This document shows positions 12,240-51,945 of a stretch of DNA of 64,000 nucleotides, one piece after another. This DNA is from Piedraia hortae CBS 480.64 (Eukaryota), in NCBI GenBank assembly GCA_010093745.1, contig MU005984.1:124001-188000 (forward strand). Direction: 5' to 3'. The notes under the pieces were generated by a model. That model saw only the letters and a list, made by a program, of their open reading frames with translations, was not told the DNA's origin and did no database searches. Position numbers and translations under genes: made by a program. Within the stretch, counting starts at the first letter, position 1. Each line of letters starts with the position of its first letter.

Positions 12240-14041
12240 TCAGAGCTTGGCGGCCTTGGGAAAGATGCTGCTGTAAATATGGTCAACGACGTATTGCGCA
12301 GTGATGGTTCGGCCATCAAACCAGCGGCCGTTGAGTCCTCGAATGGCATTCTGTCCACCTTGCACCGTGTCGAATTTCACATAGATTTCGCCATCAGTGT
12401 TGTCAAGCGCAAGGCCAATGTGGACCACGGGTCCATATTTTTCCTCACATTCTAGGCGAACGTCGTCTTCAAGCTCCTTCTGCCAGCTTGGCCCGGCAGC
12501 CCTGAAAATAAATTAGCAAGGTTGCCCACAAATCGCCCAGATACACGTACTCCTCGGGACTGTACATGTTTTTGAGCAGGACGCAGCGGCTGGGTGCCTG
12601 TTGCTCAGGTACAGCTACTCTTTTCTGGTTATTGGTTGGAATAGCCGTCTTCTGCGAAGGCTCTTCGACCCGCGCAAGTTTACGCATCAAGGAATCACGA
12701 CTGAAATTGGAAAAATTGACCCCTGCAACATCGGTGTCATCAAGGGCGCTTGCGCCCCCCGACTTCTCCGTATCTCTACCAGTGGCACGGTCAAAATTAG
12801 TCAAGCCGCCAGCGTGAGCGCCGCGGCCACCCATACCGGAAAATGAGGAGCCTTGCTGAGCCTGCTGAGCCTGTGAGCTGAACCGCTGTAGAAGGCTATG
12901 GGTGGACTCAGCCGTGAATTTGTCGTTACCAAGTCCCACTCGGATCGGTCGACCAGCCAGTTCAAAGCCGTTCATCTTTTCCAGCGCATCTTTGGCTTCG
13001 CCGGGATCTTTGAATTGCACAAAGCCGTAGCCTCGGCTGCGGCCCTGATCTTCCTTCTGTAGTTGAACAAACTCGAGTTCTCCAAAGGGCTCAAAAACAT
13101 TCTTCAAATCCTCTTCGGTGATGGAGAAGTGTATGTTACCCACGTAGAGGCGGTGAAAGGGAACACCATTGGATTGCGTCGTGGCGCCTTCGTTTGCGCG
13201 TGCAAGGCGATTTTTTTCTGCCTCTGTAAGCTGAGCAATGATCGGAATACCAAGAAGTTTCTGGCCGGTCATGGCAATGGCCCTAGGAACCGATTCTTCA
13301 TCCTTGAACTCGACATAGCCCACGCTGGAAAGCTGTTAGCGACCAGTTCTTCACAGAGGAGACTCAAAACGAGAGTTCTGCCTACCCTTTGGAGCGTCCG
13401 CTCACCCGATCCTTGACGATTTGCGCTTCCACCACTGGACCGACAGTTTCAAAGAACTTCTGCAAGTCCGAGGTGCGAAGACGGGCAGCAAGCTGCTGTA
13501 CAAAAACGGTGCGTCTATCACTGTCATCATCAGTCGGCTCAGGAGTTTTGACTCTTTTGGATGGCGGAGTGCAGCGACGGGAGCGACGGCCGGGGCGGTC
13601 GGGGCGGTCAGCATCACGGCTGTCCCGACGGCCCCGATCACGCTCTCGATGGTGCTCGTGCCGCCTGGAATCTGGACGGTAATGCCTATCATCATCAGGT
13701 GAGCGACGCGTGCCGGTGCCATGGTAGTGGTCACCTGAGTAGCGATCCTCGTGCCGGTCTCGATAGCGCAATCCACGGCTGCGAGGCGAACGAGACCGTC
13801 GCCGACTCACCGGGCGCCCGCTGGTACTGCTGCCGTCATCGGCGTCCTTCATCTCCACGTCCGCCCCGAGAGACTTGCGCGACCGCCGCGCATCGTTGGC
13901 TTCGCGCTCAGCTGAGTAGCGGTTGGTGTCCGGCGCACTGCGGCTGTCGCGACCGTCGCGATCATGGCGTCGTTCGGCCTGTTGCTTGGCTATTGCCTTC
14001 TTTTCCTCCTGTTCCAGCAGCTCGGCGACAGCTGCGTCCAT
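12240..14041 (-). CDS. RBM39/Rsd1/PAD-1-like splicing factor (RS region, 2 RRM, UHM)
   Basis: [54 protein letters not shown]; introns at about 13325-13385 and 12502-12549. Confidence 0.92.
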
Positions 14042-14655
14042 ATCTGTGTTGGTAATGTGGTCTTTTGCACGTGCGACAGCTGCTCACTTATGGCTAAACT
14101 ACCGTAGGCTCCAGCTGCGTCTACCTGCACGTCCTGTTGCGTTGTCGCTGCCAAACTCGCCGCCCGTTCAGGTTTGCGGCGTGGAAAGCGGGACCTAGCG
14201 GGCTTGGCGCATGTGCAGCCTCTGATTGGCCCGTGGCAGCCTCACTGTTTTCTGCTGGAAAAACGCTGATTACGCATAGGTTCAACGTGGCATTCACTCA
14301 GCGGCTCTCACGCGCAGTGAATCACAGTGATAGACACATTGGCAGCTGCAGGAGACCGTATCATCCGCCAGACGTATCGAAATATCTCAAAGACTTGCTG
14401 CACCACAACCCCCAGACCGCCAGCAAGCCCGCGCCTGCAAAGTACAGAGCACAGTGGGAGAAACGAATATTCAAGTACGAACGCTTGTCTCCATCAGAGA
14501 TCTGGAGGACAAGACACGTCCTTGGCGCTTCATATTCACCCAACGCGCGTAAGCCAACCGAACTAGTGTTTGAGAAGAAGCATCTGGCCCGCTTAAGGCC
14601 ACCTGGTCACGAAAAAAATATAGAGCATAGACAAGGCCTTGTACAAACAAATGTC

Positions 14656-17274
14656 ATGCATGCCAAGCTCCAAATTCTCACCACGCCCACGGCTGACACG
14701 CCGGGGACTACACTCTTGCTGCAATTCGACAACAAGCGCTATTTGATTGGTAACGTTGCAGAAGGCACGCAAAGAGCTTGTGTGCAGGAAGGCGTGAAGC
14801 TGCTCAAGCTGACAGAATGTTTCATCACAGGGCGGACCGAGTGGAGCAACATTGGTGGCTTGGTCGGCATGATCCTAACTCTGGCGGAGGCTGCCGCCAG
14901 CAGCAGCGAATCCATCAAAGAGGAAGCGCTGAAAAAGGCAACCAACAAGGCCCGGAAGTTGGGCTATCTAGGCAACAAGAAGAAGATGGCAGAACTTAGC
15001 AAAGAGCTCGACTCGCGAGAGTCTCCTCGGCTAAGCATCTTTTCCCCACCGAATCTCAATTATGCTTTGGCAGCGGCGCGGCGATTCATCTTTCGCAAAG
15101 GCATGCCTGTAGATGTCCATGAAGTGAATGAGGCTTCTCAAGAGGGATCCGGCCCTTACTGGGCTGATGACAATATCAAAGTGTGGCCCATGATAATACA
15201 CCCAACTACCTCAGCAGTCCCAAAAAATGGCCGCAAGCGAAGTATTGGCGAGGTAAACGAGCCTGAGGAGCAGCCTACTCCCAAGCAACGTGATCTTCTC
15301 ACCCTCAAAGCTGTTGTGGGCAACATGTTCGACTCAACATGGCAGCTAAACCAATATCGTGAGACGAAATTGGGAGAAGTCGAGTTACCGACATCAATAT
15401 TCGTTCGCAATCCCGAAACTCAAAAGGTGGAAAAGTACTGTGGACCGTTACCTGGAATCATTGGATCTAACTATGACCCGGAGCTTCCTGTATTGATCCG
15501 TAAGCCATGGCCTGGTGCGCTGGTGGATAAGTTGCCTTCTACCGAACCAGCCAAGGAGGCATTGAGCTACATAATCAAGTGCCAAGACGAACGCGGTCAA
15601 TTTTCGCGGGAAAAGGCAATTGCATTAAAAGTCCCCAAAGGGCGGCTATGGGGAGCTTTGGCTTCAGGCAGCAATGTGGAGAACGAGCTTGGCGAGATCA
15701 TTACCCCCGATATGGTTCTGGGAGAGGTGCGAGCTGGCAGTGGTGTAGCCGTGGTAGATCTACCTGATCCGTCGTACATTGACGGTCTGCTCTCCCGGTG
15801 GGAGTGGAAGCAAGAAACAATTATGTCGGGTGTGGGTGTTATGGTCTGGATCTGTGGAAAGGGGGTGGCCGAAGATGAGCGTGTGCTAGAGTTTATGCGG
15901 GAACATGCTGGGATACAACATGTGGTGTCAAGCCCAGAGCATTGTTCAAACATGATTGCATTGGACTCGATCGCAACCATGACTATCCGTCACCGTCAGA
16001 TCGATGCCAAGAGGTATGGCGTGCCGGTGCAGGATTCCAAAGTTGTGCCTAGTAACTGGCCAACAAATGTACAACGAGCAGCCCGAGGGCAGCTTATCCA
16101 AATGATGCCGTGCATTAAAGTGCCAAAGGAGCTAACTGTGCAGTCGCTTGACATTCAGGCAATAGAGTCTGAGACGCCAAAGGAGGTGATTGAAGCAGTA
16201 GCCACTGCCCGCCAAGTAGCAGAATCGAACCATTCTGAAAGCTTAAAGTGGGCAGCTAGCCTACCGGAAGGAGCAGCGGACGTTGAGATAGTCACCCTGG
16301 GAACGGGCTCTGCCTTGCCATCCAAGTACCGCAATGTGTCAGCTACGTTGATGCGAATACCCGGGTGGGGCAGCATGCTATTCGACTGCGGCGAAAATAC
16401 GTTGGGACAGATGCGGCGCGTTTTTGGAGAAGAGGAGACGCGCGAAATCCTTTGTGGGCTGCGTATCATCTTCATCAGCCACATGCACGCAGACCATCAC
16501 TTGGGCACCGTTAGCGTTATCAAGGCTTGGCATGAAGCGACTGGGACTGATAACAAACAGCTACTCCCGCCAGAAACAAATGCTCGAGACGTATTTACCC
16601 GCGTAGGAGGTCTGGCAGTGGTTAGCGAGCCAGCAATGCAAATGTACCTGGCCGAATATGCTGCAATGGAGGATTTTGGGCTCTCGCGCGTGGCACCGCT
16701 AACCGTCTGGCCGGCAAACTTGGCGCTCAATCGGCCCTCGCGACTAACATGGTTTGTCCCCCCAAGCGAACTTGCGCAGCTACCGAGGGAACTGCACGAA
16801 GAACGTATGCGGCAAAGTACGGTGTCCCCGGACCTGCTCGGCTTGAAAGACATTCAGGCTGTTTCAGTCTTACACTGCGAAGGTGCAAGGGCAGTCAGTC
16901 TAACTTGGCCTTCGGGTTTCAAAGCAAGTTATTCTGGCGACTGTCGCCCGAGCAAAGCCTTTTCAGAGATTGGACAAGGCAGCACCGTCTGCGTTCATGA
17001 AGCGACGTTTGACGATGCATTGAGCGCCGATGCAAAGGAAAAGAAACACAGCACGACATCCGAGGCCCTGGAGGTTGCTAGAGCTATGGATGCCAAGGCG
17101 TGTTTGCTGACGCACTTTTCGCAACGATACCAGAAGCTACCAGTCCTGCGAGATCATGACAGCGACATGAGAATTGCCGTTGCTTTTGACTACATGAGGC
17201 TCAAGGTAGGCGACTTCCCTGAGATGGAGAAGTTCTTCCTGCCCTTGCAGTTGCTGGTTGCTAGTCAAGGATAA
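14656..17274 (+). CDS. TRZ1: tRNase Z long form (ELAC2/Trz1); possibly extended upstream from a non-AUG start
   Basis: TPTADTPGT, IGNVAEGTQR, TLGTGSALPSKYRNVS, DCGE, SHMHADHHLG, YSGDCRP, HEAT, HSTT, THFSQRY. Confidence 0.95.
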   Translation: MHAKLQILTTPTADTPGTTLLLQFDNKRYLIGNVAEGTQRACVQEGVKLLKLTECFITGRTEWSNIGGLVGMILTLAEAAASSSESIKEEALKKATNKARKLGYLGNKKKMAELSKELDSRESPRLSIFSPPNLNYALAAARRFIFRKGMPVDVHEVNEASQEGSGPYWADDNIKVWPMIIHPTTSAVPKNGRKRSIGEVNEPEEQPTPKQRDLLTLKAVVGNMFDSTWQLNQYRETKLGEVELPTSIFVRNPETQKVEKYCGPLPGIIGSNYDPELPVLIRKPWPGALVDKLPSTEPAKEALSYIIKCQDERGQFSREKAIALKVPKGRLWGALASGSNVENELGEIITPDMVLGEVRAGSGVAVVDLPDPSYIDGLLSRWEWKQETIMSGVGVMVWICGKGVAEDERVLEFMREHAGIQHVVSSPEHCSNMIALDSIATMTIRHRQIDAKRYGVPVQDSKVVPSNWPTNVQRAARGQLIQMMPCIKVPKELTVQSLDIQAIESETPKEVIEAVATARQVAESNHSESLKWAASLPEGAADVEIVTLGTGSALPSKYRNVSATLMRIPGWGSMLFDCGENTLGQMRRVFGEEETREILCGLRIIFISHMHADHHLGTVSVIKAWHEATGTDNKQLLPPETNARDVFTRVGGLAVVSEPAMQMYLAEYAAMEDFGLSRVAPLTVWPANLALNRPSRLTWFVPPSELAQLPRELHEERMRQSTVSPDLLGLKDIQAVSVLHCEGARAVSLTWPSGFKASYSGDCRPSKAFSEIGQGSTVCVHEATFDDALSADAKEKKHSTTSEALEVARAMDAKACLLTHFSQRYQKLPVLRDHDSDMRIAVAFDYMRLKVGDFPEMEKFFLPLQLLVASQG

Positions 17275-17382: not shown

Positions 17383-18343
17383 TTACACGGCACTATACCC
17401 ACCCCTATCGTTTGTGAAAAGTTTCTTGGAAACCTCTCGTATGTTGTACGGGATGTCTCGAATAGTGTCACCGTGAGGACTGAATCAAAATATTAGCGCC
17501 CACACGTGAAGCTGAGGAAGAAACTCACATCAAATCCCACCCCCGCGCCCCATAACGATTGTAGTTCAACCAACTGCCAAAGATGATGTACGCAGCGGCC
17601 AACAGGAAGATGATAATGAGCATCCAGGCGAAGAACCCCAAATGGCTTTTCCTAGCGTCATCGCGAAGTTTATCAGGTTCGTTGGCAACACCCTCACAGG
17701 CGTACTTTGTCTTCCATCGCACGCGGAGCGTGTCAATGTCCCCATCAGCGCCGTAGGAAACGAACTGCAGCGCCCTGCCTTTATCTAGATCTGGCAATTC
17801 TGGCGAGTCTGGTTCTTTATCATCAAGAACAGAGACACCTTCCGCATCGAATCCCTCTGCTCCGGACCAATCCCTATCGCAGTCGAATTGCACAACAGCC
17901 TGCTGCAGCCGGCCTTGTCGTGTGTCGGGATATTTGCCTCCATGGAACGTTACGTCAATTCCAGTGTCTTTCTCTCGCTGCTTGACCTCTGCGTCTAGCG
18001 CTCGGCCATGCGAGGCGTAGTAGTCTCCGGCTATGTCTATGACGCGCGAAACCTCGCCTTCGCCATTGGGGTCGGACGAATGATACACTCGCTCTATGCC
18101 ACACACGCGTGTTCCAGTACTGCAGTTGTCTTTTGATGAATCTTTCTTGGGCAATGCTTGGCACAGGTCAAGAGTGAAGGTGAAGTTGAAGGTGCTGGGA
18201 GGTTGCCAACGTTGCCAGTGGACTGTCTTGGGCCCGCCCAAGGCCGAGAAGTCATAGCTTTGACCCGAAACACGCGTATGTGTGCAGTCAAATGTCAGGG
18301 CTGTAGCAAGGACAGGGAGGGCCATTAGGCATCGGAGCTGCAT
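17383..18343 (-). CDS. ATG27: Autophagy-related protein 27 (MRH-domain type I membrane protein)
   Basis: Signal peptide, Cys-rich luminal domain, WKTKYACE, TM segment, NYNRYGARGWDL / intron 17480-17528 / IPHGDTIRDIPY..GGYSAV* (YxxPhi motif). Confidence 0.9.
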
Positions 18344-49085: not shown

Positions 49086-51945
49086 TCACACCACATGACT
49101 GCCAATCTGACGTTTGATCTGCTCCCTCGCCCAGCGGGCAGTTTCCTGCGTTCGGGGTGAGAATTCCTTATTGGCACGCGTGTCACGAGCCATAAGCGTG
49201 AGCCAATCATGGCGAAAATAGCTGGCATATTCGCCATTAGGAAAGGCCTCAGCAATATCGCTAAACTAATGTTAGCACGAGAGCGCGAAACCGGTAGGAC
49301 TACTGACCCAATAACGCCCATAGAGCTCCTCAGCAGAGCCTCGGTTCTGTTGGGGTCTTGCCACACGATATGCAGAAGCTGAAAGACCGACTCGATGTAA
49401 TCTGGGCGCAACAAATTGGCTGTAACAATGTCAGTAGAGCAGCAGACACAAAATGTTAAAAACTTACTCTTATTGCTGGACCTCATAGCCATTATAATTC
49501 CTCCCCAAGCATCCATGATGCCTTCGCGAAGGGAAACAATGTAATCCAGCATTTCGTAGTTGCCCACGGTTTCGGTCTGGACGGAAGCACCAGCAGCCTG
49601 CTGCAGAACTTGGGCGACAACCGAGATATACGTCTCGAAGTGGCCGCCAATAGCTTGCGCAATATCACCAAAGCACTGCAGGATGGCTGGCTTAAACTGG
49701 TTCCCCAGATTTGTGGACTATTCGTACGTCAGCATGTTACAATTGCTTCAAAAGGTTCCCACCTACACGTAAATTGTTGAGCAGGCTGTTCATGAATTGG
49801 TCACAGAAGGGCTGAATCTTGATCTCCAGGGCGCGGGACAGATCAGAAACGAGGCCAATAGCCATCGAACAAATTTGTGGCTCGTCCTGGTTATTCAGCG
49901 CGCTGAGAAGGAAGGGCAAGAAACTCTGCATGTATTTCTCAAAGTTTTGCTCAAGAGCATTGGCAAGGGCGCCGATTGCGGCAAAGACTGTGTCAGGCAC
50001 AGAGCTCTTGGCACCCAGCGAGCTTAAGAGGTTCAGCATCAACTGCATAATGCGATCAGCCTGAGGTGCAATTTCCACCTCCAGACGCTGGATAATGCTG
50101 ATCAGCACCGAGGTGAGGGAAGTCTGAATTTCCTCGAGGATCAAGCGATCCTCAACAGACACCACGTGCTGCGCCATCTTCAACGTATTTTCCAACCTGT
50201 CGATGATGACAATGGATAGCTCAGCAACCAGATTGCAGTTGTCGTTCGCAGCATTTGACACAAAAGCGTTGAAGACTTCGTATGCGGCCGTTCGCAGCTG
50301 ATTGTCGTTTGTGCTGCCAGTAAGGTCGAGCAAATGGCGAATGCTGGCCTGAAAGTGCGGGCTAAGGGCGTTGGTAGCACATCCGGGCTCGCCGGCGAAG
50401 CGGTCTGCCAGATTCATAAGGGCCCAGCAGCATGAAGATGCCATTTTGGGCTGCGAGCTCAAGCCGGTAAAAAGAGCGGCGATCAAGGGCTGCAAGTCCT
50501 GATTAGGGTCGATGGTATCGGGAACGCACTCGCAGATGCGGCCCAGGGCATAGGCTGCCGAGTCCTGCACCTGCGGATTTGCGTCGCTCATGGTGCTAAT
50601 GAGGACCGGCAGACCCTGCTTGACAATGGGGGCCAGCACTTTTTCGTCAGGACCCTCCATGATGGCGCCAAGCGCGGCCACGGCGGCATCCCGGTAGTGC
50701 CAATTGCCGTTGGGTAAGTTCTTCTCGATGAAGCCAAGGACAGGCGGAATTATGGCACTGCCCACTGCCTGTGCCCAGAGCTGCAGACATTGGTAAGCCG
50801 CTCGAGAGACATTGTAGTCATCATCGGCCGCGTCTTCGTCTTGCGTAGCCAGCAGTTCCAGCAGCACCGGGACAACTTCTTGCGTTGCAACGCGTGCGAA
50901 GCTAAAGTGCGTTCGCGAAGCCTCTGCGCCATCGCTGGCGACGTTGTCGTCCTCAATGGCAATCTCCTCTTCGCACACGGTGCACCAGAACTCGACGGCA
51001 AGCTTAGCCACGTCCTCTTCGTCGCTCTTCATGCCCTGGATCGTCAGCCCGAATAGAGCCTTCTCCATGTAAAAGCGCATTTTGTCATAGTACAGCCCCA
51101 TGATACGGTTCAGACATCCATAGGCGCCCTGCTGGATGCGCGTGTCCGGGGCCTGGGTTGCTTCGCAAACAACCTGCATGATGTAATTTCGCTCGCCTTC
51201 ATTCTCAAAGTTGGAGCGCACAAACTCGAGGGAATCACCCAGCGCCGAAATGGCTGCGTTGCGGGCATCTTGGTTCGGCTCTTCCTTGCGCGCACCCTGG
51301 ACCACGGCCGTCAGGATGGCGTTGCTGTGTTGTGCTAGGCTTTCACGCAGGTCCTGATCGTCACTCTCGCAAATAAAACCCATTGCGACCAGACTTGACT
51401 GCTTCGTTGCATCACTGTCGGCTCCCACATTTTGCACCAGCGTAGGCATAAGCTCCGGCCATTGTCCGCGGGGCAGCTCGATGGCAGCAATTGACGCAAT
51501 GAACTGCGCCGCCGACTGCCCTGCTTTGGTGTCTGGCGAGCCGAGGGTCTGAAGCGCGAGGGCCTTTACCGCACTCTTGGTCTGGGGATGGATTTGGGTG
51601 AGCCAGCGATTCTGAACCTGACGTAAACGGCTATAATCGCGCGAGGAAAACGAGTTTTTAAGAGCCAAGCCGGCAGCGATGCGGACCTGGGACTGTGCTT
51701 GCTCATTGGCAAGCTCAGTAGAAAGGGTTTGCAGATAACCTTCCTGCGGACACAGTCAGCCAAACAATCCACACCACCGTTGCCCTCGTTTTACTCACGA
51801 AATTAGCTTCGGCCGCAGCATGGAGCTGCTGCTCGGCTTGTGAGCGGATAGCGGGATCTGGGGCAGTTAGCTATATGCATCAGACTGCTGCTGGGCTGTC
51901 CATACCTGCAGCGAGAGTGCTGGAGAGCACCTGATTGACGTCCAT
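49086..51945 (-). CDS. KAP95: Importin subunit beta-1
   Basis: MDVNQVL start, AAGLALKNSF, IELPRGQWPELM, FENEGERNYIMQVVCEATQ, VEFWCTVCEEE, LREGIMDAW; five short introns; 3' end approximate. Confidence 0.95.

What the first reader, a model, noticed from the sequence alone, without database searches (positions are those of the whole stretch)
14137..14660. tRNase Z has an AUG-free, stop-free in-frame 5' extension: candidate non-AUG mitochondrial isoform
Seen: the TRZ1 frame is open for 173 codons before the first in-frame ATG (14656), and I find no ATG in any + frame from about 14214 to 14650. In-frame near-cognate codons ACG (14263, preceded by AAA), CTG (14266) and ATT (14269) start TLITHRFNVAFTQRLSRAVNHS, an Arg/Ser/Thr-rich, acid-free stretch like a mitochondrial presequence. 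The 615 bp gap to the divergent RBM39 ATG is long for this window; about 220 bp to the ACG is typical. Established: long-form tRNase Z works in both nucleus and mitochondria, and yeast ALA1/GRS1 use non-AUG starts for mitochondrial isoforms. Inference: leaky scanning produces two isoforms.
Basis: partly seen in the sequence, partly recalled or inferred. Interest (0 to 1): 0.7.

Follow-up and report, generated by a model that had tools for sequence, protein, structure and literature searches.

The report
Non-AUG mitochondrial form of tRNase Z
This fungal tRNA-trimming enzyme gene very probably makes a second, longer, mitochondria-bound protein that starts at a GUG instead of AUG, a trick already proven for the same gene in yeasts, here with a much longer added piece that related moulds also keep.

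Summary
The extension is real. The frame is open for 186 codons above ATG 14656. It is homologous to extensions in related fungi (53.6 bits; best of 500 shuffles 9.8). An RNA contig covers it unspliced from 14285. In 43 of 48 dereplicated relatives the frame is open for at least 100 codons (other frames 0 and 2). 33 of 48 carry an in-frame R-nn-[T/C/G]TG-GC; 14 of the other 15 have an upstream AUG, 13 in weak context. Extensions are nearly Met-free (1 of 4217 codons). That choice is likely, not shown. The gene appears single-copy. Non-AUG mitochondrial Trz1 is already shown in S. cerevisiae and K. marxianus, so the mechanism is known. What my searches did not find: the conserved UUG-type start in filamentous ascomycetes, and about 90 motif-bearing residues that would stay on the mitochondrial form. 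Initiation and import were not tested.

The parts
14098..14655 (+). Stop-free, in-frame-ATG-free stretch upstream of the tRNase Z AUG (186 codons)
14287..14289 (+). Proposed near-cognate start GTG (context ttc aac GTG gca; A at -3, GC at +4/+5), 123 codons above the AUG
   Evidence: only in-frame near-cognate codon with purine -3 and G +4 among codons at least 40 upstream of the AUG; rank 1 of 557 with a matrix from 32 relatives, but rank 69 on columns not used to pick the sites
14287..14376 (+). Presequence-like first 30 residues: net charge +3, first acidic residue at 15, hydrophobic moment 0.76, loose R-x-Y cleavage-like motif at residues 23-26
   Evidence: composition only, no targeting predictor was available
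14386..14400 (+). LKDLL motif, conserved predicted helix of the extension
14449..14514 (+). Conserved A55-x-W57...Y64...P69...W73-R74-x-R76 segment (numbered from GTG 14287)
   Evidence: among the 56 extension-bearing homologs of alignment A2: W73 47 of 51 filled rows, Y64 41 of 46; pLDDT under 50 in the full model
14560..14655 (+). Conserved E92-x-x-F95...H99...L103-x-P-P segment just before the AUG; predicted ordered next to the core
   Evidence: L103 49 of 55, H99 44 of 55, F95 41 of 55; pLDDT block means 70-87 for residues 91-130
14656..17274 (+). tRNase Z long form, 872 aa from the conserved AUG (proposed nuclear form); HxHxDH at 16480, PxKxRN loop after LGTGS 16297
   Evidence: Pfam PF13691 and PF12706 above cut-off; 5mtz E 2e-121; Z 36.9, rmsd 2.8, 642 aligned to yeast 5mtz; Met in 56 of 56
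15232..15243 (+). RKRS basic patch, candidate nuclear localisation signal
   Evidence: [RK]KRS in 108 of 120 listed homologs; position; function inferred
14651..14746 (+). Out-of-frame ATG 5 nt before the main AUG, weak context (C at -3), 31-codon overlapping ORF
14339..14566 (+). Out-of-frame TTG in strong context (aca TTG gc) opening a 75-codon ORF that ends before the main AUG; role unexplained
14263..14274 (+).
   Evidence: not covered by the RNA contig
14285..15896 (+). RNA contig of run X1, unspliced, no differences from the window
   Evidence: record 4
12240..14117 (-). Divergent RBM39-type gene: ATG 14041, RNA cover to 14117, introns 13325-13385 and 12502-12550; its 3' end was not mapped

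Best explanation
The single tRNase Z long-form gene makes two proteins. A minority of scanning ribosomes start at a near-cognate codon in good context, most likely GUG 14287, and make a 995-residue form whose first 25-30 residues act as a mitochondrial presequence. After import and cleavage about 90-100 extra residues would stay on the enzyme. The rest scan through 364 AUG-free bases to AUG 14656 and make the 872-residue form, which a basic patch takes to the nucleus. Shown here: open frame, homology of the extension, RNA cover without splicing, conserved start context in relatives, one gene match in the genome. Inferred: initiation at GUG, import, cleavage, one mRNA for both forms. My odds for the steps: extension translated 0.95; mitochondrial 0.85; non-AUG start 0.85; GUG 14287 the main start 0.65; one mRNA 0.65.
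For: (1) 80 metagenome loci were returned. One was dropped for lack of an AUG, the rest collapse to 50 clusters at 90% DNA identity, and 2 of these were dropped for short flanks. Of 48, the frame is open for at least 100 codons in 43; the other two frames 0 and 2. (2) An in-frame R-nn-[TCG]TG-GC occurs in 33 of 48 (other frames 11 and 7). (3) 14 of the 15 clusters without it have an in-frame upstream AUG, against 5 of 33 with it (Fisher p 3e-7, not corrected for kinship). 13 of those 14 AUGs have a pyrimidine at -3, while the main AUG has A at -3 in 13 of 14. The first start is therefore leaky in either form. (4) Met codons: 1 of 4217 in 32 extensions against 76 of 4123 in matched core. Out-of-frame ATG: 4.0 against 9.9 per kb. 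First 25 codons: 12% Arg, 26% Ser/Thr, 1.4% Asp/Glu. (5) A profile of 56 relatives' extensions scores the window's extension 53.6 bits; best of 500 shuffles 9.8, other frames under 4. (6) RNA contig 14285-15896 with no joint, in a run that shows both RBM39 introns spliced. (7) One match in the genome. (8) K. marxianus TRZ1 starts at a GUG 27 codons upstream from a single TSS (bioRxiv 2022.03.25.485750, passages). In S. cerevisiae only the N-terminally extended Trz1 enters mitochondria and AUG-only cells are petite (PMC6582344, passages).
Against: The RNA contig begins only 2 nt before the GTG. Contigs cannot show a start, but if the cap were at 14285 the GTG would be too close to use. One run, one study, RNA status guessed by the tool. 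On matrix columns not used to choose the sites, GTG 14287 ranks only 69 of 557 and CTG 14245 ranks first. The window lacks the RITT-like peptide and the ACG at +33 found in 16 of 32 relatives, so its N-terminus is not securely aligned to theirs. An equally good start context sits out of frame at 14339. Among close pairs the extension shows little codon-level constraint (synonymous/non-synonymous 202/295, against 34/64 upstream and 439/99 in the core). The window's presequence is modest (net +3, Asp at 15). Relatives hold 51 out-of-frame ATGs inside the extension, 22 with a purine at -3, which pure leaky scanning has to tolerate. The 32 start sites were picked by their motif, so the motif's own columns are circular.
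Confidence: 0.72

Rival explanations
1. Same two-isoform scheme, but the main start is further upstream, at ACG 14263, CTG 14266 or CTG 14245, or several codons are used together.
For: All are in frame; ACG 14263 and CTG 14266 have A at -3. CTG 14245 ranks first on unselected context columns. Relatives have 40-79 residues before LxDLL and the window only 33 from the GTG, so a longer presequence would fit. Several relatives have a second good-context ATA 12 nt before their TTG.
Against: None has both purine -3 and G +4. All lie outside the RNA contig, and depth arithmetic leaves no room for other contigs over 14118-14284, though a hole in contigs proves nothing.
Confidence: 0.17
2. The long form starts at the near-cognate codon, but the short nuclear form comes from a second, shorter transcript that begins inside the extension, not from leaky scanning.
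For: Out-of-frame ATGs inside relatives' extensions are only halved, not removed (51 in 12.7 kb); one relative has five. K. marxianus uses alternative TSSs for other genes.
Against: The near-total absence of in-frame Met (1 of 4217) and the weak first starts in both lineage types are what leaky scanning predicts. The window itself has no ATG from 14287 to 14650. K. marxianus TRZ1 has a single TSS.
Confidence: 0.2
3. An upstream AUG exon is spliced to 14280: ATG 14090 with a 176-nt intron 14104-14279, or an ATG split by a 67-nt intron 14213-14279. Both restore the frame, so the long form would start at AUG.
For: A branch-like CTGAT and a TAG acceptor end at 14279 in the right phase. The donor GTAGGC at 14104 is the same hexamer as a spliced RBM39 donor. 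A YAG lies within 20 nt upstream of the start in 23 of 32 relatives. An unchecked note on this genome reports overlapping divergent genes.
Against: No such joint or loose end in the RNA run; the contig starts at 14285, not 14280, and the RBM39 contig runs unbroken to 14117. The two observed introns are 49 and 61 nt with CTAAC/CTAAT branches. GTGCAG is a poor donor. A branch plus YAG is found in only 5 of 32 relatives, and YAG distances vary.
Confidence: 0.07
4. Only the long protein is made and the Met at 14656 is internal, as for K. marxianus ISC1; targeting is then split after translation.
For: The last 30 extension residues are predicted ordered against the core; ISC1 precedent.
Against: Met is present in 56 of 56 homologs at this position, mostly with A at -3, and matches residue 1 of yeast Trz1. 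In yeast the AUG form is the major one.
Confidence: 0.04
5. The ancestral UUG start is the out-of-frame TTG 14339, displaced by an indel, with the GTG recruited later or the main frame reached by a -1 shift.
For: A DNA alignment places relatives' TTGGC on 14339. Its start context scores 12.2, reached by 2 of 300 shuffles (post hoc). CGC and ACG sit at +27 and +33 as in relatives.
Against: The downstream matrix scores it -16.4, rank 152; the whole matrix is matched by 198 of 300 shuffles. It is only 16 codons from LKDLL. I saw no slippery heptamer by eye.
Confidence: 0.03

Closest known systems
Kluyveromyces marxianus TRZ1 (bioRxiv 10.1101/2022.03.25.485750; passages read)
   Same: Same gene; single TSS; upstream GUG adds a mitochondrial targeting sequence; leaky scanning to the AUG.
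   Different: 27 codons there against 123 here (67-183 in relatives); shown there by ribosome profiling, inferred here.
Saccharomyces cerevisiae Trz1 N-terminally extended form (PMC6582344; passages read)
   Same: Non-AUG extension is the mitochondrial form; the AUG form alone gives a petite phenotype.
   Different: The passages I read use a construct from the most upstream predicted codon (TTC); the K. marxianus preprint cites the start as CUG. No long motif-bearing segment is described in those passages.
Human ELAC2 / RNase ZL (PMC3084753, abstract); Drosophila RNase ZL (search listing)
   Same: Two starts, the first leaky, give mitochondrial and nuclear forms from one gene.
   Different: Both starts are AUG. 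This matches the 14 AUG-type relatives here rather than the window.
Dual-start aminoacyl-tRNA synthetases of fungi (PMC7049704, passages)
   Same: Weak AUG and near-cognate first starts replace each other between lineages, as seen here for TRZ1.
   Different: Different genes; the main text has no occurrence of TRZ1 or tRNase.
Survey of fungal tRNase Z (PMC2942849, passages)
   Same: Single long-form gene in Pezizomycotina; variable N-terminal extensions with predicted targeting sequences; about 200 residues in Sordariaceae.
   Different: 'Start codon' does not occur in the main text, and the paper was not returned by the non-AUG search. Its supplements, which list the targeting sequences, could not be read and may bear on novelty.
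cpc-1 near-cognate N-terminal extension in Pezizomycotina (PMC5487733, passages)
   Same: Conserved near-cognate codons in conserved context, with codon identity varying by branch.
   Different: A transcription factor under uORF control, not described in those passages as a targeting switch.

Membership tests
tRNase Z long form (Trz1/ELAC2) | N-terminal tRNase Z domain plus C-terminal metallo-beta-lactamase domain with HxHxDH, PxKxRN, HEAT and HST motifs | tested here: met
   PF13691 95.5 bits and PF12706 40.8 bits, both over cut-off; motifs invariant or nearly so in 74 sequences
tRNase Z long form (Trz1/ELAC2) | Two-domain fold of yeast Trz1 and ELAC2 | tested here: met
   Model against 5mtz Z 36.9, rmsd 2.8, 642 aligned; 9ey2 Z 37.3, rmsd 3.1, 634 aligned
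Non-AUG mitochondrial isoform by leaky scanning (yeast TRZ1 type) | Single gene that must serve both compartments | tested here: met
   1 match in G000 for the C-terminal domain; the assembly may be incomplete and only one candidate was scored
Non-AUG mitochondrial isoform by leaky scanning (yeast TRZ1 type) | Open, AUG-free, in-frame extension that is conserved as coding sequence | tested here: met
Non-AUG mitochondrial isoform by leaky scanning (yeast TRZ1 type) | Near-cognate codon in good context lying on the mRNA | tested here: inconclusive
   GTG 14287 has the conserved context and lies within the RNA contig, but only 2 nt from its end
Non-AUG mitochondrial isoform by leaky scanning (yeast TRZ1 type) | Extension begins with a mitochondrial presequence | tested here: inconclusive
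   Composition fits in all 33 sequences examined (net +1 to +7); no targeting predictor and no non-mitochondrial control set
Non-AUG mitochondrial isoform by leaky scanning (yeast TRZ1 type) | Ribosomes initiate at the near-cognate codon and the product is imported | not testable with these tools
   needs ribosome profiling and localisation
Non-AUG mitochondrial isoform by leaky scanning (yeast TRZ1 type) | Both forms come from one mRNA | tested here: inconclusive
   One contig covers both starts, but contigs cannot show 5' ends
Alternatively spliced targeting exon | Splice junction joining an upstream AUG to the extension | tested here: inconclusive
   No joint in run X1, acceptor not conserved; contigs drop rare variants

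The most novel reading that the evidence does not exclude
The extension is more than an address label. In this fungal group the mitochondrial tRNase Z keeps about 90 conserved residues that the nuclear form lacks, and the last 30 (F95-H99-L103-PP-R115) dock on the N-terminal domain where human ELAC2 has its alpha-1 helix, whose Arg38/Arg41 help bind the tRNA acceptor arm. Start-codon choice would then build two enzymes with different substrate-binding surfaces, a built-in stand-in for the helper proteins that animal mitochondrial RNase Z needs. Basis: motif conservation; pLDDT 70-87 for these residues in the full model; a structural alignment that starts at model residue 107 and ELAC2 residue 39 in 9ey0/9ey1 (first and last residue only); PMC11649783 passage. 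Against: residues 1-92 are under pLDDT 50, the extension alone has pTM 0.20, and no contacts could be inspected.
Probability: 0.2. Interest if true: 0.65.

Novelty: new member of a known kind. Interest (0 to 1): 0.4.

Why it matters
It extends a mechanism proven for yeast TRZ1 to filamentous ascomycetes and gives a precise, testable start motif (A-nn-UUG-GC, here GUG). It implies that many database models of this gene are truncated at the second start or given an invented upstream Met. It also shows the weak-AUG and near-cognate first starts replacing each other within one gene family. The one open biological question is why about 90 motif-bearing residues stay on the mitochondrial form only.

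Tried and rejected
Conserved hairpin at the start: mean z about 0 in 27 relatives; the lower energy near the start is compositional; window 14275-14345 z -0.34. One 50-nt window of the query gave z -3.65 on 20 shuffles, one of 31 windows; not pursued. Indel-phase test: 24 of 56 gaps in extensions were multiples of 3, against 8 of 34 upstream and 6 of 13 in the core, so the test has no power with this aligner. Codon-position bias in the extension was weak. No Pfam family for the extension; no usable Atlas hit, which shows neither absence nor novelty. Extension folded alone with 17 sequences: pTM 0.20, no compact fold. No RNA holder on record was listed; X1 is a guessed RNA run, which behaves as RNA by its two spliced introns. 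Lack of contig cover over 14118-14284 is only a hint. The bacterial promoter scan is irrelevant here. The tree is the quick one only. PMC11996679 had none of the searched terms; PMC10275265 passages added nothing on starts. Searches that found no report of non-AUG TRZ1 in filamentous ascomycetes; the library lacks most subscription papers. Earlier-findings look-ups by place and by TRZ1 words were empty.
Full report
Observation. The tRNase Z frame is open from 14098 to ATG 14656, 186 codons, while the five other frames carry 5-8 stops each. No + strand ATG lies between 14211 and 14651. Base shuffles give such an open stretch rarely (0.025% for 186 codons, 0.55% for 123). Among 23 other long ORFs of the window the largest upstream open lengths were 102 and 55.

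Gene and organism. The 872-residue ORF is a long-form tRNase Z. Its best homologs are about 55% identical; where named they are Teratosphaeria, Friedmanniomyces, Hortaea, Cladosporium and kin. A quick tree puts the window on a long branch among these. A search of the own genome gave one match, in line with the single gene reported for Pezizomycotina (PMC2942849, passages).

The extension is coding. Many of the 120 listed homologs carry 100-200 residues before the conserved Met. A profile of 13 locus-derived and 43 database extensions, without the window, scores the window's extension at 53.6 bits. The best of 500 shuffles scored 9.8 and the other frames under 4. Shared motifs are LxDLL, A-x-[FW]...Y...[RI]W-x-x-R and F...H...L-x-PP. 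For DNA, a metagenome scan returned 80 loci. One had no usable AUG, the others form 50 clusters, and 48 have enough flank. The frame is open for at least 100 codons in 43 of 48, against 0 and 2 for the other frames. Against strong constraint: among close pairs the extension's synonymous/non-synonymous ratio (202/295) is nearer to upstream DNA (34/64) than to the core (439/99), and the indel test was uninformative. Frame and a few motifs are kept; the rest drifts.

The start. In relatives a TTG (less often CTG or GTG) with a purine at -3 and GC at +4/+5 opens an Arg/Ser/Thr-rich, acid-poor peptide. It is in frame in 33 of 48 clusters (other frames 11 and 7). Of the 15 without it, 14 have an in-frame AUG far upstream, 13 of them in weak context, while their main AUG has A at -3 in 13 of 14. 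These counts are not corrected for kinship. So the first start is leaky in either form. In 32 extensions Met is almost absent (1 of 4217 codons, against 76 of 4123 in the core) and out-of-frame ATGs are halved. In the window the only in-frame codon with that context is GTG 14287. It ranks first of 557 positions with the full matrix, but 69th on columns not used to choose the sites, so the assignment rests on the -3/+4/+5 letters. An out-of-frame TTG at 14339 has as good a start context but fails the downstream test; it remains unexplained.

RNA. One public run, guessed as RNA, shows both RBM39 introns spliced. It has a contig from 14285 to 15896 identical to the window, with no joint or loose end there. 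The RBM39 contig reaches 14117 and nothing covers 14118-14284 by depth arithmetic. This refutes the idea that all transcripts begin near 14600 and argues against an intron inside the extension. It fits a compact two-way promoter and a short leader before the GTG. Contigs cannot fix a 5' end, and 2 nt of cover before the GTG is the weakest link. Two in-frame splice routes from upstream AUGs exist on paper but were not seen, and the acceptor is not conserved.

Mechanism. Most likely one mRNA is scanned; some ribosomes start at GUG 14287 and make a 995-residue precursor for mitochondria, and the rest reach AUG 14656 and make the nuclear form, which has a conserved RKRS patch (108 of 120 homologs). 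The out-of-frame ATG at 14651, in weak context, may damp the short form. Initiation, import and cleavage are inferred. A second transcript for the short form is the main mechanistic rival, because relatives keep 51 out-of-frame ATGs in their extensions.

Structure. In a 74-sequence model, residues 1-92 are disordered and the last 30 extension residues are ordered. The structural match to human ELAC2 in 9ey0/9ey1 begins at model residue 107 and ELAC2 residue 39, the region of the alpha-1 helix whose Arg38 and Arg41 assist acceptor-arm binding (PMC11649783, passages). The extension alone has no compact fold. This supports only a hypothesis, given as the novel case.

Comparison. K. marxianus TRZ1 starts at a GUG 27 codons upstream from one TSS (bioRxiv 2022.03.25.485750, passages). 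S. cerevisiae needs its non-AUG extended Trz1 for respiration (PMC6582344, passages). Human ELAC2 uses a weak first AUG (PMC3084753, abstract). Swaps between weak AUG and near-cognate starts are known for synthetases (PMC7049704, passages), and conserved near-cognate starts in Pezizomycotina for cpc-1 (PMC5487733, passages). Eight searches found no report of this start in filamentous ascomycete TRZ1; the supplements of PMC2942849 could not be read. Presequence and start-context rules used here (R-x-Y motif, purine at -3, G at +4) are partly recalled; the purine/G context is also quoted.

Verdict. A real, conserved feature that works like, and very probably is, the known non-AUG mitochondrial isoform of tRNase Z. 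New member of a known kind, with a corrected start codon and one open question about the retained segment. Interest 0.4.

Noticed in passing
L002, L005, L007, L018-L020, L022, L027, L028 and others, +27 to +55 from the TTG: An ACG sits at exactly +33 from the near-cognate start in 16 of 32 relatives, followed by further ACGA copies in mixed frames (40 ACGA in the +30..+59 bin against at most 9 in other bins). It may be a nucleotide-level element or a back-up start. The window lacks it at that position.
   Followed up: partly
same loci, 15-90 nt upstream of the TTG; window 14212: A TGTACA-like word occurs within 100 nt upstream in 16 of 32 relatives; no chance control was run. Could be a promoter element or the 3' end signal of the neighbouring gene.
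   Followed up: partly
window 14339-14566: Out-of-frame TTG in strong context opens a 75-codon ORF inside the extension.
   Followed up: partly
window 14651-14746: Out-of-frame ATG 5 nt before the main AUG; similar overlapping ATGs in L021, L027 and L032.
   Followed up: no
L027, L031, L033, L041, L042, L046, L047, L054, upstream of TRZ1: In these relatives the upstream neighbour is a same-strand gene sharing a 'YIxQLExEVA' coiled-coil-like segment, not a divergent RBM39; the window's neighbourhood differs from theirs.
   Followed up: no
P0010, P0011, P0014, P0038, P0065: Database gene models fuse TRZ1 to an upstream gene through the AUG-free extension (extra PF19798, PF13409 or PF00067 domains), probably annotation errors caused by the non-AUG start.
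   Followed up: no
L078: No ATG at the usual main-start position (Ile instead of the Met seen in L071-L076); sequencing error or loss of the second start.
   Followed up: no
window 49737-51449 (-): This ORF has 102 open codons above its first ATG; probably an internal exon, not examined.
   Followed up: no
window 17479: The TRZ1 RNA contig has a loose end at 17479 whose letters match the window at about 17530, which suggests an intron in the convergent neighbour or in a 3' UTR.
   Followed up: no
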